64,000 nucleotides of DNA from Mytilus edulis (Eukaryota): the NCBI RefSeq assembly GCF_963676685.1, contig NC_092347.1:24428001-24492000 (forward strand), given 5' to 3'. Position numbers and translations under genes: made by a program. Below the pieces are notes generated by a model. It was not told where the DNA came from, searched no databases, and worked only from the letters and a program-made list of their open reading frames with translations. Of this stretch, positions 1,541 through 51,139 are shown one piece after another. Position 1 is the first letter of the stretch, and the number at the start of each line of letters is the position of its first letter.

Positions 1541-3054
1541 AATTTCGTAACGCATTGTTTGCAGTTTTACATATGCATCGGAAATTGTTACAGCTTTTCG
1601 ATGTTGGGATTGATTGGTAAAGGTTATACCATTTGAGTGTACATAGACTAAGCGAAAGTAATATATTTAGGATTCCTATTTAAGCGACAATTTCAAAGGG
1701 AGTTTGAAACAATTTACTGCTGATTCTTACAAGATAAATTAACATTCAAAAATGATTAGAAGGTTATACAACAAATGCATACGTATGATTATGTGTTTCA
1801 GATGTCATCTCACATCTCACATTTACTTTTGCACTGCTTGTCCAACTAAGGTCAATTTGCCTGAGACTATCATAAATTGATCACCAGGTTTGCATGAAAA
1901 TAAGTTGGGTATTATTGCTGCGAGACAAATCCCCTCCGGATTTCAAATGACGTAAAATATAGGTCGCCATACGGTTTTCATGCCGTTTTGTTACTCACTG
2001 GATGAAATATACCCACATCTCCTTTATTTGGTTAAATTTATTATAGTTCACATTCATTTTTGTAGCTGTTTATTTTCGTGGGAATTTGTCTGATGCTTGG
2101 TCCGTTTCTGTGTACGTTACATTGTAGTGTTGTCGTTGTTCTCCTCTTATATTTAATGCGTTTCCCTCAGTTTTAGTTTGTTACCCCGATTCTGTTTTTT
2201 GTCCATGGATTTATGAGTTGAACAGCGGTATACTACTGTTGCCTTTATTTAAAACGCCAGGTAATACATTTAATAGTCCCTTGATACCCATTAAAACAAA
2301 AAGGTAATGTTCGTTAGTATCTTAATAGCTTTTCCCAATATTTATTTACTTCATTTGTTTGCTTTTCTATTATCTTATTGGTAACAAATCACAGAGGGCT
2401 ACTTCAAGCGATTCATTGTATACATTGTAACTGGAGTAATGCAGATAAAATCAACTAGTTTATACTGAAGCGTCAATTTTGCTATTTCTCATTTAATCTG
2501 AACAATCTTTATTTTGCCTATCAGTTAATTAAAATATAATTAGTAAATGGTTTAACTCGTATGAATAAAAATGAAATTTATAATATATGAATACTTAAAT
2601 TAGTAAACTGTTAAACTCGTATAAATAAATAAGAAATATAATATATGAACACTTCAATCTACCTTGACAAAAAGTAAGCAAACATTTTAACAAAATTCAA
2701 TAACATTTACGATACCATTTTTTTCTGCACCAGATGCGCATTTTAACAATTTATCTTCGTTAATGTTCGGGACAAAATTATATGAAAATTAAAAAAATAT
2801 TGACAAAATGAAAAGCATATAAGCTGTATAGGTGAGATTAAGACCAGAAAAATGTGCGGATAACTCACCAATCATAACTGCTGCTGTCAGAGTAATCTTA
2901 TTTTAAAGATAGTTTTATATTTTTAATGCATGACACTAGCACTTGAAGATAATTTTGAAGACAGATGTCTACAGAATAACAATAGATTAAACTTAGTTGA
3001 AATAACCTTTACCGACAAATTTTTCACTTGTCTGCTGAGATACACTTTATAGTT

Positions 3055-16812: not shown

Positions 16813-17714
16813 TAAATAATAAAAGGTTACACAAGTCAATGTATCAAACCAGAAAACACTTAGCAGTTTATCCCGAAATGACCGAAATATGAAAATATTT
16901 TTTTCAGAATAGTTCGTAAATCAAAGGTAAATGAAGAATAGGTTGATAATAATCGTCCTGGCATTGACTTATTAAATGGGTGTTACATCGGAAATAAGAT
17001 TCAGCATTGTGAATTAACACAGCTGATTTCAAGTTTCTAGACTACAAGGACGAGAGTATAGATATTTCATATATGATAAGGCATAATTTCTTTGAGAAAC
17101 TTGAAGTAGAAAATTACTTTTGACACGTGAAGAATAAAACGTGGGAATAATATCTGTTGTCGTATCATGTCAATCGGAAATTGAACACCATCTGAAATTG
17201 ACATTTATATCATGAAAGATAGAATTTGATGAAATTAAGAGATCTGGTGATCATTATAAATTTAATAGAACCAATTACGTAATAATTAGATTACAGTAAA
17301 GAGTTATACAAAATTAAAACATCAAAGGCTTCGGGCAGAAGAACGAATTGTTGCTGGTGGTATTAAGTAAGATAATTATTAAAAGTAAGGTCAAACAAAT
17401 GGGATTGGTATTGTTATTCTCAATAAATGAATCTGAGTTTTTCAACATCGTTTGAATATTAAACATTGAAAGCCTGAGATTAAGATTTCTATCCAATATA
17501 ATCTTTGAACTTCATGATTAATCACAATATTCGAAGTATTTCAACAATCCCAGAATCACTACATTATAATAAACAGAGTTATAATTGTTTTTGAGCAGGA
17601 GAAATTCGATATGAACAAAATTACAGGCTGATGACTAGTTTTTTTCTTTAACGAACTTGACTACAATAACGGTGTGGAAATAGTTATCAAGGGTACCAGG
17701 ATTATAATTTGGTA

Positions 17715-17756
17715 CTCCAGACGCGTGTTTCGTCTACACAAGGCTCATCAGTGACG
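17715..17756 (-). ncRNA. Hammerhead ribozyme, family A (paralogue of the 26069 copy)
   Basis: Core CUGAUGA/GAAAC/GUC retained; mismatches in stems I and II. Confidence 0.6.
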
Positions 17757-20700
17757 CTCATATCAAAATAGTTATAAAGCCACGCTAAAAGACCGCAACC
17801 CAAATGACTCAAATGACTCATGTAATCAAAAGACATTTGATTAAAAAAATAAACCCATTATAATGAAGTGTACTGATGGAATATGAAGATACAAACATAC
17901 AACACCACTTGTTCAATCAACATATAACGTTATTCTATTAAAAATTGTAACGTTTATATGACCCCATCCTCCCTAAACAAACAGCCCAACCCATAGAAAA
18001 TACAAACGACTATTAACAACCGTATTTAATGAGATGGTACGATTAGATCTACATTTACTCAAAATATATCTTAACCGCATTAATAGTAATTTGAGTCACG
18101 GTAGCGCTCACTATATATTATTGTTATATTCATATGCACTTTCCTGGATCTACAATCTGTCGATTCCTGTTTTTCTCTGACTGTTTTATGTCGATTTTAT
18201 ACTAAATCAATTGGATGTTTGATTTGTACTGATTGATAATTGAGCCTTAGATGCATGATTTTCCTAATGAGTTGTTAGTGGATATGAAGTAGCTGTCAGT
18301 AACTGTGAGTTCTCTAAGATCTCTACTTTTGTTGTTGGGATGTACATATCCCAGCCACGGTCACTCTGTGTTATTGTTAGATGTATTTCTGTTTGTATAC
18401 ATCTTATATATTAAGCCTTTTCTATCTGATTTTATAGTTCGTTCTTATGTTGTACTGTTACACTAGTGCCCCAGATTAGGGGGAGAGTTTGGATCCCCTA
18501 ACATGTTTAACCCAGCAACATTCTGTATATATGTGCCTGCCCTATGTCAGGAATCTGTAATTCAGTAGTTGTCATTTTTTGTAAATAATTTGGCCGTTAT
18601 TTCTCTCGTTTAAATTGTTTTACATTAGTGAATTTAGGACCTTTATTGCTGACTATTAGGTATAAGCTTTGCTCATTGTTGAAGGCCGTACGATGACCCA
18701 TAGCTGTTACTTTCTGTGTCATTTTGGTCTCTTGTGGAGAGTTACCTCATTGACAATACTACCGCATCTTCTGTTTTGTGTTCACTTCTAGAGTGTTGGA
18801 GGTCAACAGTCGTTTGCAGTTTCTATCATCATCATCATCATCATCATCCCAGCAATAAGCATTTAAGAAAAATCGGTTTGCTAGAAGTCAGAATAAAAAT
18901 GTTTCTGAACAGGCCAATATGTCTTCAAACGAACGGTAACTTTGTGAGACAGCATCTTAAGAAGCTGACTCAGTTGCTGGCTTGGACTAGTATAAACTAT
19001 TATCTTGATTGTGAAAGTCATTCTTCGTACCATTTGTACTTTACGGATTTCTTTGAAAGTCATCTTTTAATTACGAAAATTGCAACTTGTATAATACTTT
19101 AACACCAATGTTATCGCGGAAAGATTGCTCTAAATTTATAATTACTGCATAATGTAAATAATGTATTTCAAGTCGTAAAACCACATTTGTTTTCTTTTTA
19201 AATGAAATGATTTAATGCTTTGATCGTTCTTTTATTTACAATCTTCCTTGAATTTCAATTAAAACAGAAATTATTTTCACCACAATTTCAAGACTAATAA
19301 AATGGCATTCCTCTAACGACACTATTAAAACTATGACTACCACAAAAGCACAGACAAGTCAATGAAACAGTCGATTATCGAAAGAAAAAGTTTCATTACA
19401 GTGAGAAAACGAATTCCTTTACTGCATGATTTAAGCAGTTTTCCTTATTTTCTAATTAAATATGGTTATCAAGGTGAAATGTACCGATAGTTATAAGTTC
19501 GTCGCATATTTCTAGGTTGACCTTAGAGAATAATCAGGGTAAGAATGAGAAAGCCAAGGATGAATAAATACATGTAGGACAACATTACGTAAGAGTTCTT
19601 TAGTTACTTCTAAAAAAAAATGTGGTAAACAAACTATTTTCTTTATATATTTTGCTTCATTTTTACCTGGATAATTGATATCCTAGAACTTCATATAATT
19701 TGTTGTTTTCACTATTGTGATTATGCGATTTCCTATGAAGCTCGGGAGGGTAAGAATATCAAACTCTGCATGCGATATACGTTATATTGGATTGAAAATT
19801 CTGGGTATCCGATTTTTAAACAATTCCTGCATGAGAACAGAAACATGACTACATTATTTACTCAGGCTTAAAGCAGGAGACATAGACTTTGGTTCAATAA
19901 TATTAAGATAGGTTATGTATTCGTTGGTGTGTTTTTGGGATGGGATTTTTTATGTTCTTTCTACTTATAGTTTGTCTGGAACCACTATTGTCCTTTATTT
20001 AAGATTAACATTGTCGCTTAGGTACTCTTCTTTCTCTTTTGTATGACGGAATGGAAAAGGCTGATAACAGTTAATATAAGTAATGAGTTCGTTTAGGTTA
20101 AACAATACATGCATGTGGCATATTTTGTAACGGTTTGTACCTTGTATACGACTATCGTAAATAAAACTCTTACCTATTTCTCAATGCTTTTTTTTAAGTA
20201 AAATGTGTTGATGCATAAAATTTACCAATTGTATTTCAAGAACCAACACATTTATTACTATATCAATTTACTTACTCAATTGAAACTACTTCAAAGTAAA
20301 TTCTCCCCAGGGAGCACACCTTATAGCATTGTATTGGTTGATGTAGGGATCACACCTAATCCTTGACGAAGTTGCAATATACAGCAACGGTGACCAAAGA
20401 AAAGCTAAGATGTGCTCCTAACTTCAACTTCTCTAAGGTGAGTTCCATTGATACTGTCTATGTAACATATTGTTTGAATATGGCATTGTTTAGTTTTTTT
20501 TGTAAATATTTACGTTGGTTTATATAATTTTAATATTACGGTGTTTATTCTATTATGCTACGGTGTAGTAAACTACGGCAAACCTTATGTAATGTTTGAT
20601 GGTGTTATTAAGAACTAAACGAAATATGTAATATAATCTTCGTGTATAAACATGTTCCAACCCAATTGAATTTAGCTAAATAATGTTCTTAATTTGAGAA

Positions 20701-23248: not shown

Positions 23249-26068
23249 CTGAAAATAAAGAAAATATACATCATTAAAATGAAATTAAAAGTCTTTTGAA
23301 ATTATTGATAAGCATAACAAATCATCATAATTTCAATTGTCCTCACATTAATGAATTTTTGTAATGGATAAGTTTGTTTTTCAAACTCATGCGTATTGTT
23401 CATAACAGGGTCCATTGGAGATCATTAGGAAGAATAGATTCATCATTTTTTTGAATATCACTTTAAACCATCTAAATGATTTGAAGAAAACAGGCTTTTA
23501 ATAATTGCATTTACAAAGAAAATAGTTTATATTAATGAGAAGAAAACAAACATTCCGTTTTTGTTGTTTTTTATGAACATTGACATTACTCTCATGTTTC
23601 ATATTATAACTATAGACACATAACAAGGTCATGAGCAGTTTGTGAAGGATTCTGATAATACAATAATACATGTAAGTTTTTACAAGTGGTTGTTGAGACT
23701 TGGTAAGATTAAACTCTCTTTCTGAACACAAAGTTTAAAAAAACTACTGGTCAATTCAGGTTGAATTTAAAAGGAACATGCGCAAAATAAAATTAGGAAC
23801 AGTCACCTAAACTATTCATGATAATCTGTTTATGATATGATAGTACAAGTAGGATGTAAATGTGCCAAAAACCTCGGTTTTTATGAATCTGCATAAAACA
23901 TGGAAAGTGTTTTGTTTAGATCAATATAAGTGGTTTTTGGTTAGGAAATTTTCCAACAAAGTGGTGAGCTTTGGATATTTGGAATTTTGGGTTTCAAGCA
24001 TCTTTGAAGATACATTTGAATATAGAAATGCACATCTGGTGCAGAAAAATTAGTAACGTTCATGAAATTGCTTGCTCATTCTGAAAACCAGCATCTTGTG
24101 AGTAGTCAACCTTATAAACAATCATATATACAGAAAAGTTCCTAACCAAAATTTGATGCATTTTATGTTATCATTTATACATTGTGATCTTGTCCCTAAA
24201 ATTCAAAACTAAATTTTTTCGAAAGATTTTTGATTTCGCTAATTAAAAAACGTCATCTCGAATGAATGCGGTTGTTAGTTAAAAAAGATTCAACCAAAAA
24301 CATTTAGCCAATTTTACGTGACGGCGACTATAGACAACGCGTTAGCAAAACAACAATTTAAATTGATTTCAGCACAAGTACAGTTTTATCGAACAAGGTA
24401 CTACATTTACTCTTATAATTTCCATTTTTGCCTTTCTTGATTATTTGATTCATTGAAATTCTTAATATTCCGTTTCTATAGGCGCATAGTTAAGAAGCAT
24501 TTTTGTCAGAATCTATATTTTAGGTCGGAGTATAGCTCATTTAATTTTCCTGTTAATTCAGATGATTCGAAGCTTTTCCGGTCTGTCTACCAAAATCTTT
24601 GACTAATTAATGTTTGAACTGCTTCAACTTATTTTTTCTTCGATTTTACGATAACTTGAGAAAAAATTACAAATATTGATAATTTCGAACTTAATCTCAG
24701 AATGTTCAACATTCGATAACAATGTTCTACACAGTGTGGGAACGGAACTGTACGGTTTCATAATAATTTGGTCATTCGGGAGACTTTCAAGCGGGGCTCC
24801 AACATTCGTAACAATAACAAGTTGCTTGATGGAAAGTTTGATGAACTTAAGTGTTACTATAAAACTTTTCTGCTTCAAGTTCTGGTAATCATATAATATA
24901 TATGAACCAATAAAATAATAAAAACAACATATGAATCCAAACGTTTTCAATAGAATGGTGGGGCTCCGAGTAAATCGATCAAAACTGCGACGGAGCAGCG
25001 ATCAAAAATGTTTAATAAACATCGAAAAACCCATCGTTACTATCAGAATTACCATATGTACCTTTTCTGATATATAGTTTTACCTGTCTGAAAGTTTGAA
25101 AGTCATTGTCCAAGTAGAAACCCCAATATATTCATTTTCTAAAAGTCGGATATTTTAATTGACTGCACAATCGCTTGCAAGTTTACTGTACAATCGCTTG
25201 GAGCCCTCCTGTACAATCACTCGGAGCTTTCCTTAGCCAAATTAATTAAACACATTACATATGCGTTTCATTGGCTGTTACTTGTCTGTCCCATTATTTT
25301 CATCTATGGTATAAAAAGGGAAATTCCGCGATTTTTTACTTATCATCTAATTATGTTCATCTTAACATAAAAAACACATTTGCAAAGTTTTAAATTTATA
25401 TTCCTTCTAATAACGGAGAAAATCAAGTATTTGTAACTTTTTTGGTTGACCTTCTTGAGTGGGTTGTGACATTTCAGTCCGATGTGTTGAGTTCTGGGGA
25501 AAATAAAATCTGTTAAACTCTTATAGCTTATCCACAATTTACGTAAATAAAAGCGCACAGATGACGGATGGTCGTAGTTATAAACCACAATATAAGAATG
25601 AACGAAAATAAATATGTGTGTACCGTTTTGTATTGATTGACTAAAACTTCATATATGAAATTATCTTAATGTAAATATTTTCGAATTAATTTCATAATTT
25701 TTTGTTGAGATTTCCTCACAAAATATCTATTGAACATTTTTACTGATATTGAACTGAAAATATTTGTTTTATTTACCGTTTTTATTTTGATAATAATTTC
25801 AATGCAAATTATGTGTGAGCAGAGTGTGTTTATTATTTTGTAAATATCCAATATAATCTTTAAACTTCATGATTAATCACAATATTTCGAATTATTTCAA
25901 CAATCCCAGAAACACTACATAATAATAAACTGAGTTATACTTGTTTTTCAGCAGGAGAAATTCGATATGAACAAAAATACAGGCTAAAGACAAGTTTTTC
26001 TTTAACGATCTTGACTACAATAACGGTGCGGAAATAGTTATCAAAGATACCAGAATTATAATTTGGTA

Positions 26069-26110
26069 CGCCAGACGCGCGTTTCGTCTACACAAGGCTC
26101 ATCAGTGACG
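26069..26110 (-). ncRNA. Hammerhead ribozyme, family A (one stem II mismatch)
   Basis: CUGAUGA gccu ugugu agac GAAAC gcgc GUC uggcg. Confidence 0.7.
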
Positions 26111-29100
26111 CTCATATCAAAAACGTTATAAAGCCACGCCAAAAGACCGCAACCCAACTGACTCAAATGACTCAAGTAATCAAAAGACATTTGATTAAAA
26201 AAATAAACCCATTATAATGAAGTGTACTGATGGAATATCACGATACAAACATACAACACCACTTGTTCAATCAACATATAGCGTTATTCTATTTGAAATT
26301 GTAACGTTTATATGACCCCATCCTCCCTAAACAAACAGCCCAACCCATAGAAAATACAAACGACTATTAACAACCGTATTTAATGAGATGGTACGATTAG
26401 ATCTACATTTACTCAAAATATATCTTAACCGCATAAGTGATTTGACTTCATGGTAGCGCTCACTAAGTATTATTGTTATATTCATATGCACTTTCCTGGA
26501 TCTAGAATACTACCGCATCTTTTGTTTTGTATTCACTTCTAGAGTGTTGGAGGTCAACAGTCGTTCATCGATATTTGCAGTTTCTATGCCAAAAGAAATC
26601 CCTATCTACCTCTTTGTCTTAACAACTGAACGAAAAATGCCAGATGCAAACTTCATTCAACTCCGTAGACCTATATTGCGGGTTTGAACAAACAGTTCTT
26701 GTATAAAATCACCATCATTATCATCATCATAATCATTATCTGCCACGCAATAAGCATTTAGGAAAAATCGGTTTGCTAGAAGTCCAAATATAAATGTGTC
26801 TGAGCAGGCCAATCTGTCTTCAAACGAATGGTAACTTTTTGAGACAGCATCTTAAGAAGCTGACTCAGTTGCTGGCTTGGACTGGTATAAACTATTATCT
26901 TGATTGTGAAAGTCATTCTTCCTACCATTTGTACTTTACGGATTTCTTTGAAAGTCATCTTTTAGTTACGAAAATTGCAATTTGTATAATACTTTAACAC
27001 CAATGTTATCAAGGAAACATTGCTCTATATTTATAATTACTTGCATAATGTAAATAATGTATTTCAAGTCGTAAAACCACATTTGTTTTCTTATTAAATG
27101 AAATGATTTAATGCTTTGATCGTTCTTTTATTTTACAATCTTCCTTGAATTTCAATTAAAACAGAAATTATTTTCACCACAATTTCAAGACTAATAAAAT
27201 GGCATTCCTCTAACGACACAATTAAAACTATGACTACCACAAAAGCACAAACACGTCAATGAAACAGTCGATTATCGAAAGGAAAAGTTTATTACAGTGA
27301 GAAAACGAATTCCTTTACTGCATGATTCAAGCAATTTTAATTATTTTCTAATTAAATATGATTATCAAGGTGATATGTACCGATAGTTATAAGTTCGTTG
27401 CATATTTCTAGGTTGACCTTACAGAATAATCAGGGTAAGAATGGGAATTCCAAGGATGAATAAATACATGTAAGACAACATTACGTAAGAGTTCTTTAGT
27501 TACTTATAAAAAAATATATGGTAAACAAACTATTTTCTTTATATATTTTGCTTCATATTTACCTGGATAATTGATATTCTAGAACTTCATCTAATTTGTT
27601 TTTTTCACTATTGTGATAATGCGATTTCCTATGAAGCTCAGGAGGGTAAGGATATCAAACTCTGCATGCGATATACGTTATGTTGGATTGAAAATAATCT
27701 GGGTATCCGATTTTTAAACAATTTCCGCATGAGAACAGAAACATGACAACATTATTTTCTCAGGCTTAAAGCAGGAGACATAGACTTTGGTTCAATAATA
27801 TCAAGATAGGTTATGTATTCGTTGGTGTGTTTTTGGGATAAGATTTTTTATGTTCTTTCTACTTATAGGTTGTCTGGAACCACCATTGTCCTTTATTTAA
27901 GATTAACATTGTCGCTTAGGTACTCTTCTTTCTCTTTTGTGTGACGGAATGGAAAAGGCTGATAACAGTTAATATAAGTGACGAGTTCGTTTAGGTTAAA
28001 CAATAAATGCATGTGGCATATATTTTGTAACAGTTTGTACCTTATATATGTCTATTTAAACTTAGCCTCGAACATCTAAAATATTTCACAATGCTTCTTG
28101 AAAGTAAAATATGTTGATACATAAGGTGGGCTCCCTACTGCAACCACTTTAAAGCGTAAATATGTTCCTAACTTCAACTGCTTAATAGCTAATGTGTGCT
28201 CCATTGATACTATCTCTGTAACATATTGTTTGAATAAAACATTGTTGAGTATTTTGTAAATATTCACTGTCTTTTTATAAACTTAATGTTACGTTGTTTA
28301 TTATTGTATTGTGTGATAAACTAAAGAAAACCTTACGTAATGTTTGATGCTGTAATTTAATATAAAATGAAATATGTAATATAATCTTCGTGTATAAACA
28401 TGTATCAACCCAATTGGATTCAGCTAAATAATGTACTAAATTTAAGTGAATAAACAAAATTTCTTAAATGTATCTGCATAATCAAAAGAGCTGTCGTTAG
28501 TGTCAACAACAATTAGGTGTGTGTCGTAGTCAATAGAAAATAAAGTTCAAATAGTTCTTGTGATGCAACTAATGTTTCCATTAAATGAATTTAATAATGC
28601 AACTCAACTGTAAGTTTATGACCAACAAATGTAGTATAATGGAAAGTGCCCTCCCGGGAGACAACTACATATTTATTCTACCCACTCCCGCATGAGAAAT
28701 GAATCGCTATCTGATGTGCTTAAGCTGTTAAATCTTATATACTATTGTACCTGCCTGTTAAAGTATGCATTTTAATGGGATATTGATATACGTGAACAGT
28801 GGGATAATTAATTTCACATATTCAAAATATTAGAAGATAACAAGATTATTCTCCTATCAATTTTGTTTAATATTCCATTGTAAGATGGACTGTGAGGATG
28901 TTTTATTACAGTAATATTACGAAAACAAACCATTAAATATCACTTAAGTTATTGACTACTTTAGGTCAAATTGGAGTGCAATTAACTTACTGACGGCTAC
29001 TTCTATACTTATATTACAATACATTTTTCACCATTGCGGATTAATAATATTGAATTGGTTTAAGAACAATATTTGCCTTTAAATGCGTTTCCTGAAATTA

Positions 29101-31696: not shown

Positions 31697-32030
31697 AAAA
31701 AAAAGTAAAATCACAAAAATACTGAACTCCGAGGAAAATTTAAAACGGAAAGTCTCTAATTAAATGTCAAAATCTAAAGCTCAAGCACATCAAACGAATG
31801 GATAACAACTGTCATATTCTTGATATGGTACAGGGATCTTTTTTATGTATAAAATGGTGGATTGAACCTTATTTTATAGCTTACAAAACCTCTCACTTGT
31901 ATGACAGTCGCATCAAATTCCATTATATTGACAACGATGCGTGAAAAAAAACCAAACAGACATAATAGGTAGAACTATCAATAATACAACAGTCAACATT
32001 GTGCTATAATCCTAATCCCTAAAAACAGTC
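31697..32030 (-). mobile_element. Dispersed repeat family (also about 38140-38290 and 58050-58480)
   Basis: Shared aaaatcacaaaaatactgaact...aaacgaatggataacaa. Absent from duplication copy 1. Confidence 0.65.
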
Positions 32031-33641: not shown

Positions 33642-34142
33642 CTGAAAATAAAGAAAATATACATCAGTAAAATGAAAGTATAACAAATCATCATAATTTC
33701 AATTGTTTTCACATTAATGAGTTTTTGTAATAGATAACATCAGTTTAAACCATCTAAATGAAACAGGATTTTGATAATTGCATTTACAAAGAAAAATAGT
33801 TTATATTAAAATTCCTTTGTTTTTGTTTTGATGAACATTAATATTACTCTCATGTTTCATATTATAACTATAAACACATAAGAAGGTCATGGCCAGTTTG
33901 TGAGGGATTCTGTTTGAATCTTTTATAGATGAAACGCGCGTCTGGCATAAACATAAAATTTTAATCCTGGTATCTATGATGAGTTTATATACGTAAGTTT
34001 CTATAAGTGATTGTTGTGACTTGTTAAGATTGGACTTTCTTTCTGGCTTTTCTACCTCAGGAATAGATTATCTTAGCTGTATTTGGCAAAACTTTTAGGT
34101 ATAGCTCCTAAACTTCATACTTTATTTGGTTTTTTATTCGAG

Positions 34143-34184
34143 CGTCACTGATGAGTCTTTTGTAGACGAAACACGCGTCTAACG
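34143..34184 (+). ncRNA. Type I minimal hammerhead ribozyme (intact core), family A
   Basis: cgtca CTGATGA gtct tttgt agac GAAAC acgc GTC taacg; one mismatch in stem I. Confidence 0.8.
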
Positions 34185-35789
34185 TAGTTACTAAATTTCA
34201 ATCCTGGTATCTATGATGAGTTAATCCGAACACAGTTAAAAAAAATAGGTCAGCTCAGGTTGAATGAAAAAGGAACATGCACAAAAAAGATTGCCACCAA
34301 GAACTTATAGTACCGTTTGCAGGTTAGGATTAGTCACCCAACATTAGTCGTCTGATAACCTGTTTAAGACATTATATTACCATTATGTTGTGAATGTGCC
34401 AAAAACCTCCGTGTTCATGAATCTGCATAATGCATTGAAAAGTGTACTGTTCAGATCAATGTAAGAGGTTTTGGTTAGTTTGTTTCTAACACAGCAGTTA
34501 GCTTACGATATTTAGATTTTTTGGTTTCAAGCATCACTGAAAGGACATTGGATATCGAAATGAGTATCTGGAAAAGAAAAATGATTATCGTTCATGTAAT
34601 TTGCTTGATCCCTTAAAATCAGCATCAGGTGAGGGATCAGTCACATTTAAGACCAGGTTTCAAGATAAGTTCCCTACCAAAATTTGATGCATTTTATGTT
34701 ATCATTTGTACGTTGTGATATTTTCCTAAAAATCCAAATTTAATTTTTTCAAAGAAAATTTATATCCCATTTGAGATGTTATATATTCCAAACAGATTAT
34801 AAAAGATATGCAATATCTTATTATCATTTAGACAAGTTGACTATCGGAGATACATTAAATTTCGCACGTCGATTCATAAAATTGAGAATGAAAATTGGAA
34901 ATGTGTCAGAGAGACAACAACCCGGCCAAAGGGCTCAAAACAGCAGAAGGTCACCTATGGTTAATCTGAAATTCAAATCACTATGTCCAAACTCCTTAAT
35001 TCCATGATTACGATTAAAGTAGTACATAAATATGATTACTATTCTACATTTTTCTTTATTTAGCATATAGTTAACTCTCCGTCATTGACAAAACTTGTAG
35101 TCAAGTTGTGTTTACATTGTTTGGAGTTATATTATATATTTCATGTACATAGTTTAACGTATGACAAAAAAAATCTGAAACAATTTTGCATTATAGAGTT
35201 TAAAATGCTTTTATAAGATTTGATGTTTTGTATGGGATAATGATGTATAACCTCCAAAGTTTACGATTTCACAAATAATCCAAGGATATAGAGATTAATT
35301 GTACAATTCTAGAAGGTATAATTATCTGTATTGTATAGAATACTTATTCCTTTCTCAATTTTATTATTATCTATTTGTTAAATATATTAGTTTAAACATT
35401 TGAATTAACTGATTTTTTTTGGAAAGGGTAATGTCAAAACATAACAGATATCACATAAAATGCAGGAGGGTTTTACTTTTTCGACACGTTTTGATCTGAA
35501 ACCGTTATGAGAAGTGTGATTCCAAATATTTTTTCACACATTTCGTCTGTTTTATGTAATGACTTGTAATAACTAAATTTGTTTTGATGTACAATATTCT
35601 AATTTATGTCATGAAAAAAAGACGAGCGCTGTGTTCAAACAGCTAATATTCTTATATTTATTGATGTTATGTTCTAGACGTGTTTGTAAGCACAAAAATA
35701 ATTCAGATTTGTTTTAGCACAATTGCACAAATATCGAAAATGGTACTACATGTATTCTTATGATTTTTATTTTTGCCTTACTTTGTGTC

Positions 35790-36030
35790 GAATAGTTATC
35801 AAAGGTACCAGGATTATAATTTATAGTACGCCAGACGCGCGTTTCGTCTACATAAGACTCATCAGTGACGCTCATATCAAAATATTTATCAAGCCAAACA
35901 AGTACAAAGTTGAAGAGCATTGAGGATCCAAAATTCCAAAAAGTTGTGCCAAATACATCTAAGGTAATCTATGCCTGGGATAAAAAAATCCTTAGTTTGT
36001 CGAAAAATTCAAAGTTTTGTAAACAGGAAA
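35790..36030 (-). mobile_element. Hammerhead-bearing dispersed retro-repeat (Penelope pLTR/retrozyme-like). Other copies at about 165-370, 2710-2900, 17680-17780, 23960-24060, 26035-26135, 33915-33990, 34045-34225, 34500-34590, 36697-36875, 38750-38840, 44710-44850, 50745-50865
   Basis: Shared sequence ...ctcttcaact...gagcgtcactgatgag...gaaacgcgcgtctggcgta...aatcctggta..., with a common 3' end and variable 5' truncation. Confidence 0.7.
35829..35870 (-). ncRNA. Type I minimal hammerhead ribozyme (intact core), family A
   Basis: Minus strand reads CGUCA-CUGAUGA-GUCU(uaugu)AGAC-GAAAC-GCGC-GUC|UGGCG: complete core, stems I and II, and a palindromic minimal stem III. Confidence 0.85.
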
Positions 36031-38987
36031 GATGGTTTAACCCCTGCATTTTAATTTGCAAAAGTCATCCCTCCATTGCACTTGATAACAATTATCTGAT
36101 TCATTGATATTCGTAATGTTTTAAGATTAAGCTTTTAGAAATTCTGTTTCTATAAGTGCAAAGTTAAGAAGCATTTTTCTAAGAATCTGTATTTTATTTA
36201 GGTCGGAGTATAGCTGATTCCATTTTCCCTGTTAATCCAGATGATTCAAAACTTTCCGGTCTGTCTACCTAAATCTTTGACCAATTAATGTTTGAACTGC
36301 TTCCACTCATTTTTCATCGACTTTTCGAAAACTTGAGATTCATCACAAGAAAAAAATATTATAAATTGATAATTTCGTACTTAATCCCAGAAAGTTTAAC
36401 ATTCGATAATAATGTGCTTATAAAAAGTAACGAATTATGGCGGGACACACTTAAGCTTCTACTATGACATACTTGCAATACAATAACAAACGACAGAGAA
36501 TAACCAAAGTCGTTCCCTTGCATGAGCCTTAAGTATGTCTCTAAATAATTCGTTATTGCTTGCTGTACTATTTCGTATACATTTGGTACTATTTGTTGTA
36601 CATTTATAGCACAAATGTTTACTTTAATATATTATAACCCCCAGAAATATACTCATCGCTAAAACTTCTTCTTACTCCCATCCATATTTGTCCGTAAATA
36701 AACTCATCATAGAAACCAGGAATTCATTTATTATTTACGCCAGACGCTTGAATCCTAAAAAGTTAAAAAGGTCAAATTAATTACGAAGTTGAAGAGCATT
36801 GAGGACCAAAATTCCTAAAAGGTTTGCCAGATACAGCTAAGCTAATCTATTCCTGAAGTAGAAAAGCCTTAGTGATCTTCTTTTTCAGCTAACAAATGTA
36901 CACTGCCTTCTTATTCTGTATTTTTCTCTCTTTGTGCTGTTTATTATATACTTCTTTTCAATGCAGGGACCTAGATTCTTTAAAGATAGAAATAAAAAAA
37001 CAAGAAGTTTTGAAGAGGTTGCATGATTTTGAGTTGTTGAAAAGCATTGAGGCACACCCTTTTTGTTGAGATTTTATTCAGTCTTTCTATTGTCTTGTCA
37101 TAGCAATATTTTACAAAGTCTACTGCTGTCTAAAAGCCTTTTTTCTGAAGTCGATTTACTTATGAATATAAAATACGTAGATGTTTATAAAATTGCATTA
37201 CTGTACTGAATGTTAATGTTCCATCTTGGTATTTAAAAAAAGTGATATATAAACTAAACCAACAATAACAAAAATCACATTTTCTTTCAACTCCTAATGA
37301 CAATTGGAATCCCACTTGGGCATAATCATTCCTAGTTATCCTAGTTTAAGAAGAGTTTATGGATTTGATATAAAGTTTGAAGAATTAAGGTTATCAATTA
37401 ATTGAAATACAATCTAAATCATTACTTTTTATGAGATCTCCAGATGAAAATTTGCTTCAAAATTTTATATAGAAAATTAAACTTGGTATAATCAGAAGTT
37501 ATTCAAAGGGGAACAACTAGTTCTGGAATCACTGTATAATTGTAATGCTATGGTTGTTTGAGTTGATTTACATTTCGTATTAGATAGTTCGTCGTAGGAG
37601 CTTGTAATAAAGTCATCATATTACAGGTAATCATAAGTACCCAGTGCAGGTGCTATATTTGAAAATGCAATGTCAATTCACAGTTTCTCACATATAATGA
37701 CTTTTTCGGATAGAAAGGTGTAAATTTGATTCAAAACACATTCCAGGCAAAACTGTAAAGTCCGGAAAACCATTTTTCATATGCAATTCTACTAGATACA
37801 AAGAAACCATTTATGACTCTGCGGAAATCTTGTTTATAACATACGATGTGATATTTATGTTATTCTCTAATATATCACGAGCTGGATAAAATGTAAGATA
37901 AGTCTTTCTACGCAAATTTTGACATTTTGTATTACACATTGAATCATAGATGGGTCTTGAAGTAAATTTATTTGTTTGTTATTTTCTATACAGATTTAAT
38001 ACAGACTGTTGTCAGAACTTCAAGGAAAACTGAAATTGTTTAAGTTTTCTATCGTCGAGTAATACCATTGCTATATTGCTATCCAACCCACAAGACTATC
38101 TTTAAATATATAAAAAAATGCTTTCCACAAAATGCAAGTAAAAAGTAAATAAAAACATTCCGAACTACGAGGAAAATCCAAATTAGAAAGTATGTAATCA
38201 ATGGAAAAAAACAAAATTTCAAACATATCAAATGAATGGATAACAAATGTCATTTTCCTAATATGGCACAGTCATTATCTTGTGTAAATAAATATTACAA
38301 CTCGATTTCCTCTCAGCCAAAACAAGAGCCATTACTGAAACCACAAATTTTCACAAGGTTTATGTCTGCTCCTGATGTTCTTACTAAGTGTATTTGTTTG
38401 TTTGTCAAATGCATGCACTTTTTAGACTGATAATGAGATCTGGAAATTAAATCTTTCTGTATGCTTTCACGCCTTTTTTAACTGTTTAGTCTGGCTAGTA
38501 TAGTGGATAACTTTATTATTAGTATCTCGACATCTTTTATTATTTGATAACATTTAACAAATACAATCATGAACAGGTTACCTGGTAGAATGTGTCTGTA
38601 TCTCAACTAACTAGCCACATTTTGTTGCTTTTATAAAATTTAAGCAATGTATGCAAGACTCAGTATGCTACCTTTTAAGGTTTTTTGTCAATGTATTTTG
38701 TTGTTTTAATTTTGTCAGCTCTTTAACGCTTGCATTATTGTTTTGTTTTAAATTTTTCAAATATTTTGGCCTTTACCATCACTAATGAGACATTTGTTGA
38801 TGCTACTGCACAATTGGTGCAGTTTAAGTATTATCGTTACTATTTTGATATGTTGTTATTTGTACATGGGTTCACTACGCTTGCCTTTTGGATATTGCTT
38901 ACATATGAACAGAGAGACTGAAGTTGCATGTAGAATGTTTCTCACCTTTTTATCTTGTTTTTGATCTGGTTTTATCGATAAGGATTA

Positions 38988-43520: not shown

Positions 43521-44881
43521 TTGATATCAAACATACAATGTAAACACCATTAGTGCCACAATGCATCAAATAAAAGAATAAAGTAGCTGCCCAAATGTGT
43601 AGAAAAAATAACTATTATTAAAGGATAACCAAAACAAATAACTACAATATTTTTTTTCTTTTCGCATATACCATACCGCTCATTTATCATCTATTTTATA
43701 TCTGCATTTAATCATAAAGTATTATCATGTGATCCTCAATTATTTTGTCCAAATAAAAATACACTGATATATACCAACTATTGTCTTTAAATAATATATT
43801 ATTCTGGACTGACTGAGTTAAGCATTCCGAAAGTAATGAATAAATTGTGATAAAGGGAAACCGAAATGCCGATCAATTTACCCGTGAACTAGAATCAATG
43901 ACCGCACTCGCTTTATTATTTATCCTTTAATGTCTTCATCAATGATCCGCCTGTATATGGTTCCTTTAAACTGATATACACTGATAACGGCTTTATGCAT
44001 TGTGAATTAGCACAAGAGTCGTCTTCAAGTCGGTTTTTTACACGTATGACGTAAACTCAGATACAATCTTATTTATGTCGTAAATTTATATGGCACAATG
44101 TTATCCCCACCATGGGAAATATTAAAACGTTCTATCTATATCTTATACCACAATGGAATAAAACCTTACCGTAGACTGCACTTTCTTTCAAACGAGGCTA
44201 TTGTTCCTTATTGATAAAATAAAATTGTCTGATGGCATTAGCATTCCTTAATCTCATCATCTTTAACTAGTATTGCTTTGCTCTAAATTACGTTTTAGGG
44301 TCATAACGACTCTCGTATGTCTTTTTCGTTTCTCTTAATCATTGACGATACAGACAAATAAATTGAGGTTTTGTAATAGAGAAAACTTCCCGTATTTAAG
44401 AGCTCTTCCTTCGCAATCATTCTGAATAGCTTTTAATTTCGAAATTGACAGAATTGTGCACTATTATATGTACGACACTGTTATACCGTAGTCCGTTTTT
44501 TTACTAAACATTATATATGAATAAAAGGAAATACAAGTATATTTAATATTGGCACAAACTCATTGTATATTAACAGTTAATAGTTAAGACATATGATATA
44601 TTAACAGTGGTGGTAAAATAAAAAGTTTTATCATATACCTATTTTTTTTTTTCATAATATGACAATCTAACATGGAACTGAACAATCACTATCTTTGTGA
44701 CGCAGTGGATTCGAGCGTCACTGATGCAATTTTTGTAAACAAAACGCGCGTCTGGCGTGAATACAAAATTTAATCCTGGTATCTATGATGAGTTTATTTA
44801 CAACCACTGGATCGATGCCAATGCTGGTAGAGATTAATTCCCCAGCCCAGTATACTACCAACAATTTGACTAGCGTTTACA

Positions 44882-49635: not shown

Positions 49636-50731
49636 AAACGAGAGTGCACACGCTGAAATATCTCGCCTTCTTTACTTATCATTGATATTATGTTGATAGT
49701 CCTAAGTATAAAGCTTTATTAAAGACTGTCACATAAACTTAACATTAACCAAGATAACTAAAAAAAAGACCAATGAACCATGAAAATGAGGTCAAGGTCA
49801 GATGAACCATGCCAGGCAGACATGTACAGCTATGCTTCCATACAACAAATATAGTTGACCTATAACTTATAGTTTAAGAAAAACAGACCAAAACACAAAA
49901 AACTTAACACTGAGCAATGAACCATGAAAATGAGTTCAAGGTCAAATTAAACCTGCACGACTGACATATAGATCATAAAATATTTCCATACACTAAATAT
50001 AGTTGACCTATGGCATATAGTATTAGATAAAAAGGCCAAAACTCAAAAACTTAACTTTGACCACTGAACCATGAAAATGAGGTCAAGGTCAGATGACATC
50101 TGCTCGCTAGACATGTACACCTTACAATCATTCCATACAACAAATATAGAAGATCTATTGCATAAATTATGAGAAAAACAGACCAAAACACAAAAATCTA
50201 ACTATAACCACTGAACCATGAAAATGAGGTCAAGGTCAGATGACATCGGCCAGTTGGACATGTACACCTTGCAGTCCTTCCATACACCGAATATACTAGC
50301 CCTATTGATTATAGTATCTGAGATATGGACTTGACCACCAAAACTTAACCTTGTTCACTGATCCATGAAATGAGGTCGAGGTCAGGTGAAAACTGTCTGA
50401 CGGGCATGAAGAACTTGCAAGGTATGCACATACCAAATATAGTTATCCAATTAGTTATAATAAGAGAGAATTTAACATTACAAAAAATATTAACTTTTTT
50501 TTCAAGTGGTCACTGAACCATGAAAATGAGGTCAAGGACATTGGACATGTTACTGACCAAAAGTTCGTAACATGAGGCATCTATATACAATTTGTGAAGC
50601 ATCCAGGTCTTCTACCTTCTAAAATTTAAAGCTTTTAAGAAGTTAGCTAACGCCGCCGCCGTAGCCGCCGCCGCCGGATCACTATCCCTATGTCGAGCTT
50701 TCTGCAACAAAGGTTGCAGGCTCGACAAAAA
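49636..50731. mobile_element. Helentron-type non-autonomous element (HINE/DINE-like) with about six 147-bp internal repeats
   Basis: Repeats of gaaccatgaaaatgaggtcaagg, a (GCC)n microsatellite, and a terminal stem-loop gtcgagc..ctgcaac/gttgcag..gctcgac followed by an A-run. Confidence 0.75.
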
Positions 50732-50764
50732 TTTAATAATGACATTAACGGTATCAATTTTTCT

Positions 50765-50808
50765 GCACCAGATGCGCATTTCGACAACACTTGTCTCTTC
50801 AGTGATGC
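50765..50808 (-). ncRNA. Type I minimal hammerhead ribozyme (intact core), family B
   Basis: Minus strand reads GCAUCA-CUGAAGA-GACA(agugu)UGUC-GAAAU-GCGC-AUC|UGGUGC, with compensatory changes relative to family A in all three stems. Confidence 0.85.
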
Positions 50809-51139
50809 TCGTGGCCAAAATATTTAAAATCCAAAGCGTATATAAAAGATGAAGAGCTATAATAAGTTAACCCTTAAAATTAGATCTATGAATATTTTTT
50901 AGTCATTGCTATAACATTGTTTTTATTATCCATAGTTCATGGATGGAGTATGATGCATGCACATACATAATTTTTTAAATTCTGTATTTTACTGATAAAT
51001 ATACTCACTTTTATAGTCAACATCACACTTTTACACTAACAGCAGCAACTGCAGGTGAGACACAGAGTTCTGTGGATTCATTTAGAAAATGTTCAATCTA
51101 TGTATCCCTATGAAGATTTCTTGTTCCCTAGTTTGGTAA

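What the first reader, a model, noticed from the sequence alone, without database searches (positions are those of the whole stretch)
50765..50808. Second hammerhead family with compensatory changes in all three stems
Seen, comparing family A with family B: stem I CGUCA/UGGCG becomes GCAUCA/UGGUGC; stem II GUCU/AGAC becomes GACA/UGUC; stem III C-G becomes U-A (GAAAC..GUC versus GAAAU..AUC); the variable core position is U versus A. The GCGC palindromic loop is kept. Covariation visible within a single window is strong evidence of selection on the RNA fold. The kept palindrome suggests dimerisation, possibly family-specific (inference).
Basis: partly seen in the sequence, partly recalled or inferred. 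Interest (0 to 1): 0.7.

Follow-up and report, generated by a model that had tools for sequence, protein, structure and literature searches.

The report
Mussel retrozyme hammerheads with covarying palindromes
This is one truncated copy of a very common self-cutting RNA repeat (a retrozyme, probably of a mussel and probably already published); four related lineages in the genome each keep a different self-complementary loop, which suggests these ribozymes likely work as pairs, and the repeat is likely copied by Naiad jumping genes.

Summary
Observation confirmed. The minus strand at 50808-50765 holds an intact type I hammerhead with every stated change. 'Family B' is real: 4,519 exact core copies genome-wide (family A 13,826), sitting in ~350-nt tandem units that are homologous to A end to end. 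Nine stem substitutions break none of 12 pairs (P 2e-4 flat, 0.02 with CpG bias). The window copy is a lone 130-nt, 5'-truncated fragment. It most likely belongs to one of the two published Mytilus retrozyme families (their figure could not be read).

New here are lineage C (~550-nt unit, loop CCGG) and its sublineage D (227 copies, loop CUAG, about 4 expected from decay). Across A-D the loop changes by double substitutions yet stays palindromic, which supports a paired (double) hammerhead, whereas invertebrate retrozymes are described as monomer-active. Family-specific pairing of A versus B is weak, and tandem arrays do not need it.

A and B copies end 4-8 nt before an RNA stem-loop shared, with compensatory changes, with hammerhead-free Naiad elements, which end at the same offset. 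I found this independently; the scan had already noted it on other DNA. No cleavage or circle was tested.

The parts
50765..50808 (-). Type I hammerhead, family B: stem I 5' arm 50808-50803, CUGAAGA 50802-50796, stem II 50795-50783, GAAA 50782-50779, palindrome AUGCGCAU 50779-50772, predicted cut between 50771 and 50770, stem I 3' arm 50770-50765
50734..50863 (-). Whole B insertion: 130-nt, 5'-truncated solo copy, 92% identical to unit positions 258-387; its 3' end lies at the family's fixed end, +34 to +37 past the cut site
35791..36030 (-). Family A1 copy with intact hammerhead (35871-35828), the comparison sequence
26032..26134 (-). Family A1 fragment, hammerhead with a C.A mismatch in stem II; part of a local duplication with 17674-17780
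17674..17780 (-). Family A1 fragment, duplicate of the 26 kb copy, loop palindrome broken
34045..34225 (+). Family A2 copy, core intact, loop palindrome and stem I partly broken
44708..44857 (+). Decayed A2 copy that runs on into the conserved stem-loop shared with Naiad
2699..2787 (-). Decayed family B copy, core broken
23967..24063 (+). Decayed family B copy, core broken
34500..34601 (+). Decayed family B copy, core broken (paralogue of the 24 kb copy)
38755..38799 (+). Short decayed family B fragment
31700..31880 (-). Naiad terminal-repeat fragment of the candidate helper family; one window copy ends 5 nt before the shared stem-loop region

Best explanation
This is the hammerhead of an abundant ~350-nt non-coding tandem repeat (family B, a retrozyme) that likely cuts multimeric transcripts into unit RNAs, likely best when two hammerheads pair through their palindromic loop, and that is likely copied back into the genome by Naiad reverse transcriptase. 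Shown: motif, copy number, tandem units, A/B homology, kept pairs, palindromes in four lineages, sense-biased RNA, fixed 3' ends, and the stem-loop shared with Naiad. Inferred: read-through transcription of an array brings two hammerheads 350 nt apart together; they swap halves and form an 8-bp helix III (double hammerhead) and cut after AUC; a host ligase closes the unit (published for a mussel retrozyme); the circle holds one hammerhead with a weak 2-bp helix III and so cuts itself poorly; Naiad protein binds the stem-loop, starts cDNA 4-8 nt 5' of it at a nicked AT-rich target and copies backwards, giving 5'-truncated solos (like this one) or arrays. Selection on the fold acts on the replicating lineages; the window copy is most likely a dead passenger.
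For: Copy number and arrays: (5 of 20 independent B loci are 341-354-nt arrays, 2 irregular, 13 solo). Homology outside the hammerhead z=18 (alignment). Pair retention P 2e-4 to 0.02; 95.9% of cells paired, 7 of 14 pairs with two-sided change, slid controls 14-45% (14 hand-picked copies). Loop palindromes ACGCGCGU, AUGCGCAU, AUCCGGAU, AUCUAGAU. D has 227 copies against 3.7 expected from independent decay; 85 of the first 100 D rows carry a diagnostic loop II that none of the 11 single-change rows has (hand counts). The middle two loop bases cannot pair inside a hairpin. Predicted helix III is +2.4 to +4.8 kcal/mol as a hairpin and -7.4 to -13.3 as a homoduplex; the double hammerhead is 10-14 kcal/mol below two singles (spacer left unpaired). 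RNA reads cover the B unit in 4 of 4 runs, about 3:1 sense-biased in 2 of 4; C is about 10:1 sense-biased in 2 of 4. 3' ends: B 24 of 28 at +32 to +39, A1 mode +43, A2 mode +47; RNA loose ends at +33/+34 with mixed flanks. A model built from retrozymes alone finds the Naiad stem-loop as top hit in 430 kb (E 5e-4) and in 8 of 8 further Naiad copies; 13 of 13 pairs kept, 3 two-sided. Naiad terminal repeats end at the same offset in 26 of 37 dispersed copies and 8 of 8 full-length copies.
Against: PMC7229834 reports that a construct with one mussel retrozyme repeat self-cleaved during transcription (kobs ~0.1/min), so pairing is not obligatory, and PMC7761336 says most invertebrate type I hammerheads cleave as monomers. 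CCGG to CUAG, I.4 and III.2 are CpG-type changes; the palindrome case rests on two events (GCGC/CCGG, CCGG/CUAG). No pile-up of read ends at the cut site in 4 runs; the depth drop there is confounded by cross-mapping and fixed ends. In circular folds of single B, A1 and C units the hammerhead stems I and III have probability ~0, so alternative pairing could block circles without any dimer rule. The RNA-model E-values are rough, and only one Naiad family was examined. C lacks the shared stem-loop, so its helper is unknown. Outside the hammerhead C is only weakly like B (z 3-4) and not like A.
Confidence: 0.68

Rival explanations
1. Same retrozyme, but the hammerhead works as a monomer; the loop palindrome is a by-product (a closing pair over a 2-base loop plus CpG drift in founder copies).
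For: Published single-repeat cleavage at ~0.1/min (PMC7229834, section 14); the review statement that invertebrate motifs cleave as monomers (PMC7761336). CUAG can arise from CCGG by two CpG deaminations, and U-A at stem III arises in 72 A copies.
Against: No amplified lineage with a non-palindromic loop was found; the one repeated exception, 16 identical rows, is a passenger inside a >3-kb repeat in the 9 of 16 checked. CpG-rich palindromes are kept in A, B and C. The hairpin form of helix III is predicted unfavourable.
Confidence: 0.22
2. The palindromes are a selected self-recognition code: RNAs pair in trans and each family cuts only with its own kind.
For: Predicted cross-helices are poor for A/C (-0.7), B/C (-1.0), C/D (-2.8), A/D and B/D (>0); swapped dimers carry 1-5 mismatches. 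A, B and C RNAs occur in the same runs.
Against: A and B, the two largest families, share GCGC and cross-pair at -8.9 kcal/mol. 42 of 45 neighbouring hammerhead pairs are same-family and the other 3 are misclassified or chance matches, so pairing in cis explains the palindrome without discrimination; divergence with compensation gives orthogonality for free.
Confidence: 0.07
3. The window copy itself is a functional, host-selected ribozyme.
For: Its core, all stems and palindrome are intact at 92% identity to the family unit. In 691 kb not chosen by hammerhead pattern, core positions differ less than upstream flank (A 7% vs 17.5%; B 12.5% vs 19%).
Against: It is a solo 130-nt fragment with the standard transposition end; 4 other B copies in the window are decayed; the contrast is confounded by subfamily differences in the flank, BLAST ascertainment and small n (17 and 8). 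No ORF over 127 aa within 44-58 kb.
Confidence: 0.03

Closest known systems
Mytilus galloprovincialis non-LTR retrozymes (Cervera and de la Pena 2020, PMC7229834; read: passages, sections 14 and 17; supplement not readable)
   Same: Type I hammerhead in two families of similar sequence, ~350-390-bp repeats, thousands of copies, expressed. A (354-368 nt) and B (341-354 nt) fit; identity of B with a published family is my inference (about 80%).
   Different: The ~535-550-nt C and D units, palindrome covariation, fixed 3' ends and the Naiad-shared stem-loop are not in the parts I read. The paper treats invertebrate motifs as monomer-active and leaves open both the helper and what blocks cleavage in circles.
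Dimeric (double) type I hammerheads of newt/axolotl repeats and Penelope-like elements (Cervera and de la Pena 2014, PMC4209133, passages and Discussion; review PMC6765202, passages; Forster 1988 and Lunse 2017 seen only as cited titles)
   Different: Here helix III has 2 bp plus a 4-base loop and the palindrome can be followed through double changes between close lineages of one genome.
Naiad Penelope-like elements (Craig et al. 2021, PMC8557442, passages)
   Same: L212/P0001 has an N-terminal GIY-YIG, CxC and DKA motifs, RT core, pLTR-ORF-pLTR layout and no hammerhead. C copies end in (TA)n, the stated Naiad target.
   Different: The paper suggests hammerheads may parasitise PLEs but, in the passages read, names no shared RNA signal with retrozymes.
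Internal initiation by Poseidon RT (Frangieh et al. 2024, PMC11167929, parts 1-2 of 4) and Xenopus retrozyme-PLE link (bioRxiv 10.64898/2026.07.22.740005, part 1 of 5 and passages)
   Same: RT starts inside the RNA and needs sequence 3' of the start; genomic 3' ends mark the start site; retrozymes resemble PLE termini.
   Different: Those concern hammerhead-bearing Poseidon/Neptune elements in vertebrates; here the candidate helper has no hammerhead and shares only one ~60-nt stem-loop.

Membership tests
Type I hammerhead ribozyme | Core CUGANGA, GAAA, NUH | tested here: met
   CUGAAGA, GAAA, AUC
Type I hammerhead ribozyme | Three stems, open ends at stem I, with covariation | tested here: met
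Type I hammerhead ribozyme | Rfam RF00163 at gathering score | tested here: not met
   B copy not listed at E<=1; A copies 25-33 bits against a cut-off of 34
Type I hammerhead ribozyme | Self-cleavage after NUH | not testable with these tools
   searches show no end pile-up at the site; the libraries are fragmented RNA-seq
Type I hammerhead ribozyme | Loop I-loop II tertiary contacts | not tested
   PMC7229834 says the mussel motifs lack most of these nucleotides
Metazoan non-LTR retrozyme | Tandem units of 150-450 bp, one type I hammerhead per unit | tested here: met
   for A and B; C and D are 534-568 nt, above the stated range
Metazoan non-LTR retrozyme | Non-coding, GC under 45-50% | tested here: met
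   GC 33-38%, longest ATG ORF 34-73 aa in five units
Metazoan non-LTR retrozyme | Transcribed, accumulating as circular RNA | tested here: inconclusive
   sense-biased RNA and unit-to-unit joints, which tandem transcripts give as well as circles
Metazoan non-LTR retrozyme | No LTR, PBS or PPT; long target-site duplications when present | not tested
   no dedicated search made
Published M. galloprovincialis families | Sequence identity with Supplementary Fig. S4 or GenBank MN642551-76 | not testable with these tools
   supplement not readable; the host name comes from no call
Dimeric (double) hammerhead | Palindromic 15.1-16.1 segment kept through changes | tested here: met
Dimeric (double) hammerhead | Faster cleavage as dimer than monomer | not testable with these tools
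   only nearest-neighbour energies; published single-repeat activity argues against an obligate dimer
Naiad PLE (candidate helper L212) | N-terminal GIY-YIG, CxC, DKA, C-terminal RT, no canonical hammerhead | tested here: met
   Pfam RVT_1 did not score, the RT is read from the YIDD motif and neighbouring core by eye

The most novel reading that the evidence does not exclude
Mussel retrozymes are pair-gated ribozyme circles that ride a hammerhead-free Naiad enzyme through a borrowed start signal, and co-resident lineages use different loop palindromes (GCGC, CCGG, CUAG) as self-recognition codes, so that an RNA is cut only by meeting its own kind.
Probability: 0.1. Interest if true: 0.8.

Novelty: new member of a known kind. 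Interest (0 to 1): 0.48.

Why it matters
The 2020 paper on animal retrozymes leaves two questions open: what stops the hammerhead from cutting the abundant circles, and which reverse transcriptase copies them. The covarying palindromes give a concrete answer to the first (cutting favoured in tandem transcripts, poor in one-hammerhead circles) and natural matched and mismatched pairs to test it. The shared stem-loop names a helper and a start site for the second. The finding as first written, a second family with compensatory changes, is real but ordinary and probably published.

Tried and rejected
Rfam scan: no gathering-level hit; miRNA-family hits are hairpin noise. A/B nesting: one B array lies antisense inside an A2 copy (L025-L029), 1 of 20 independent B loci, treated as chance. 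Searches for further large families by stem II position 2 (12 matches), stem III purine-pyrimidine (31), and loop G-D-H-C (145) gave only scattered decayed copies. No amplified A/B intermediate. The 16 identical AAGCGUUU rows are passengers in a larger repeat (9 of 16 checked). A cleavage signature in RNA-seq was not found. Hammerhead-bearing PLEs with C-terminal endonuclease did not match the A, B or C units or the stem-loop model. A helper for C was not found. Whether dispersed copies are under selection stayed unresolved. The pseudoknot alternative in the shared stem-loop was seen by eye and not tested. Lunse 2017 is not held, so a published treatment of palindrome covariation or heterodimers there is not excluded; the PMC7229834 supplement and bioRxiv supplements may also bear on which families are known. 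Eight literature searches listed no paper on C/D-type units or a Naiad-retrozyme signal.

Full report
1. Observation. The minus strand at 50808-50765 carries a complete type I hammerhead. No pair of 12 is broken. The position numbering is standard hammerhead usage, recalled. Rfam lists three A copies below gathering and misses B. The window has one intact B and four decayed ones.

2. Is it more than chance? The B core pattern matches 4,519 places and the A pattern 13,826 in a 1.37-Gb genome, with 0 for reversed controls. A and B units align end to end, about 75% identical, z=18 without the hammerhead, so the differences are true substitutions. Scattering the 9 stem substitutions at random keeps all pairs with P about 2e-4; with a 10-fold CpG bias from A to B it is 0.02. 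Two of the four two-sided changes are CpG-type, and 72 A-backbone copies show the U-A stem III pair. The stem II transversion pairs are the firm part. A hairpin further along the unit has three more two-sided changes between A and B. This is one phylogenetic contrast, not many.

3. What it is. Of 20 independent B loci taken from the first 30 hits, 5 are arrays of 341-354-nt units, 2 irregular, 13 solo. Units are 33-38% GC with no long ORF. The window copy is a 130-nt, 5'-truncated solo, 92% identical to the unit. RNA reads cover the B unit in 4 of 4 raw-read runs, about 3:1 on the hammerhead strand in two, 1.3:1 in one, even in one (strand read by the tool's usual convention); unit-to-unit joints cannot tell circles from tandem transcripts, and no end pile-up marks the cut site. 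This fits the non-LTR retrozymes of Mytilus galloprovincialis: about 5,000 type I hammerheads in two similar families, 350-390-bp repeats, kobs ~0.1/min for a cloned repeat, abundant circles (PMC7229834). The host is my inference from this fit and from 14 large contigs. The figure with their sequences could not be read, so B being a published family is likely (about 80%) but not shown.

4. The palindrome. Searching for loops that neither start with G nor end with C gave 1,611 matches (control 14), mostly a third lineage, C, with a B-type stem II, loop CCGG and a ~550-nt unit, and a sublineage D with loop CUAG. The C hammerhead matches B at 39 of 44 positions, but the rest of the unit is only weakly similar (z 3-4). 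D has 227 copies; C, D and the single changes total 1,151. In the first 100 rows I counted 73 CCGG, 16 CUAG, 7 CUGG, 4 CCAG, so independent decay predicts about 4 CUAG. 85 of the first 100 D rows share a loop II variant absent from all 11 single-change rows, so D is an amplified lineage. All four lineages have a perfect 8-base palindrome. The middle two bases cannot pair within a hairpin, so their joint change points to pairing between two hammerheads. Energies agree: hairpin +2.4 to +4.8, homoduplex -7.4 to -13.3 kcal/mol; double hammerhead 10-14 kcal/mol below two singles (spacer unpaired, no tertiary terms). No amplified non-palindromic lineage turned up. Limits: two events only, one of them CpG-type; published single-repeat cleavage shows pairing is not obligatory; folds of single circular units do not form the hammerhead anyway. 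The general dimer idea is in print (PMC4209133; PMC6765202), but invertebrate retrozymes are described as monomer-active (PMC7761336), and the 2020 Discussion leaves open what blocks cleavage in circles.

5. Family specificity. A/B cross-pairing is -8.9 kcal/mol with one mismatch per core; C and D are nearly orthogonal to A and B. Neighbouring hammerheads are same-family in 42 of 45 cases, the other 3 being misclassified or chance matches. Pairing in cis within arrays therefore explains the palindrome, and specificity need not be selected.

6. How copies are made. 5' ends vary; 3' ends are fixed: B 24 of 28 at +32 to +39 past the cut, A1 mode +43, A2 mode +47, C mostly +369 to +374 and running into (TA)n. 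RNA reads leave the B unit at +33/+34 into mixed flanks. For A and B the end lies 4-8 nt before a conserved stem-loop. Among GIY-YIG loci one element, L212, shares this stem-loop at the start of its 1,053-codon frame; it has Naiad hallmarks and no hammerhead (Craig 2021). A model built from 12 retrozyme copies alone ranks it first in 430 kb (E 5e-4, rough) and finds 8 of 8 further copies; 13 of 13 pairs are kept, 3 by two-sided change (9 rows, 3 of them Naiad). Naiad terminal repeats end at the same offset in 26 of 37 dispersed copies and 8 of 8 full-length ones. PLE reverse transcriptase is known to start internally and to need RNA 3' of the start (PMC11167929). I infer that Naiad protein mobilises A and B. 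C lacks this stem-loop and its helper is unknown. I reached this before looking at the scan's notes, which record the same link several times; that agreement is not independent evidence. The notes shown did not mention C, D or palindrome covariation, and sequence look-ups returned nothing.

7. Verdict. The added value is comparative evidence for paired hammerheads from lineages C and D, and a named helper with a start signal; both are untested at the bench. Interest 0.48.

Noticed in passing
window 49690-50727: An element with 4.3 copies of a 147-bp repeat and a terminal hairpin abuts the 3' end of the B copy; the label Helentron-associated element is recalled, from no call.
   Followed up: no
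L025-L029 (G000:C1:7975228-7979659): A five-unit B array, units 100% identical, inserted antisense into an A2 copy; very recent.
   Followed up: partly
L177, L182, L187, L203, L214: Penelope-type loci with C-terminal endonuclease carry other hammerheads with shorter palindromes (ACAUGU, AGCGCU, or just AU), as described for PLEs.
   Followed up: no
L096-L099, L132: A C subgroup with AUA at the cut site and a different tail; the AUA form is 40-50% of sense reads at that position in 2 of 4 runs.
   Followed up: no
L139 unit positions ~378-450: Just 3' of the C fixed end lies a long irregular hairpin followed by a short one, the same layout as in A and B but unrelated in sequence; possible start signal for another helper.
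   Followed up: partly
L027:1590-1594 with 1620-1623: UGGU in the stem-loop could pair with the ACCA bulge (AUUA in Naiad, still pairing by wobble), a possible pseudoknot; seen by eye; an earlier scan note prefers a plain stem-loop.
   Followed up: no
L073-L091: A >3-kb repeat, 96-98% identical between 9 copies, carries a decayed A2 hammerhead as a passenger.
   Followed up: partly
window 23255-24217 and 33648-34747; 17490-18156 and 25845-26508: Local duplications that carry A or B fragments, so window copies are not all independent insertions.
   Followed up: no
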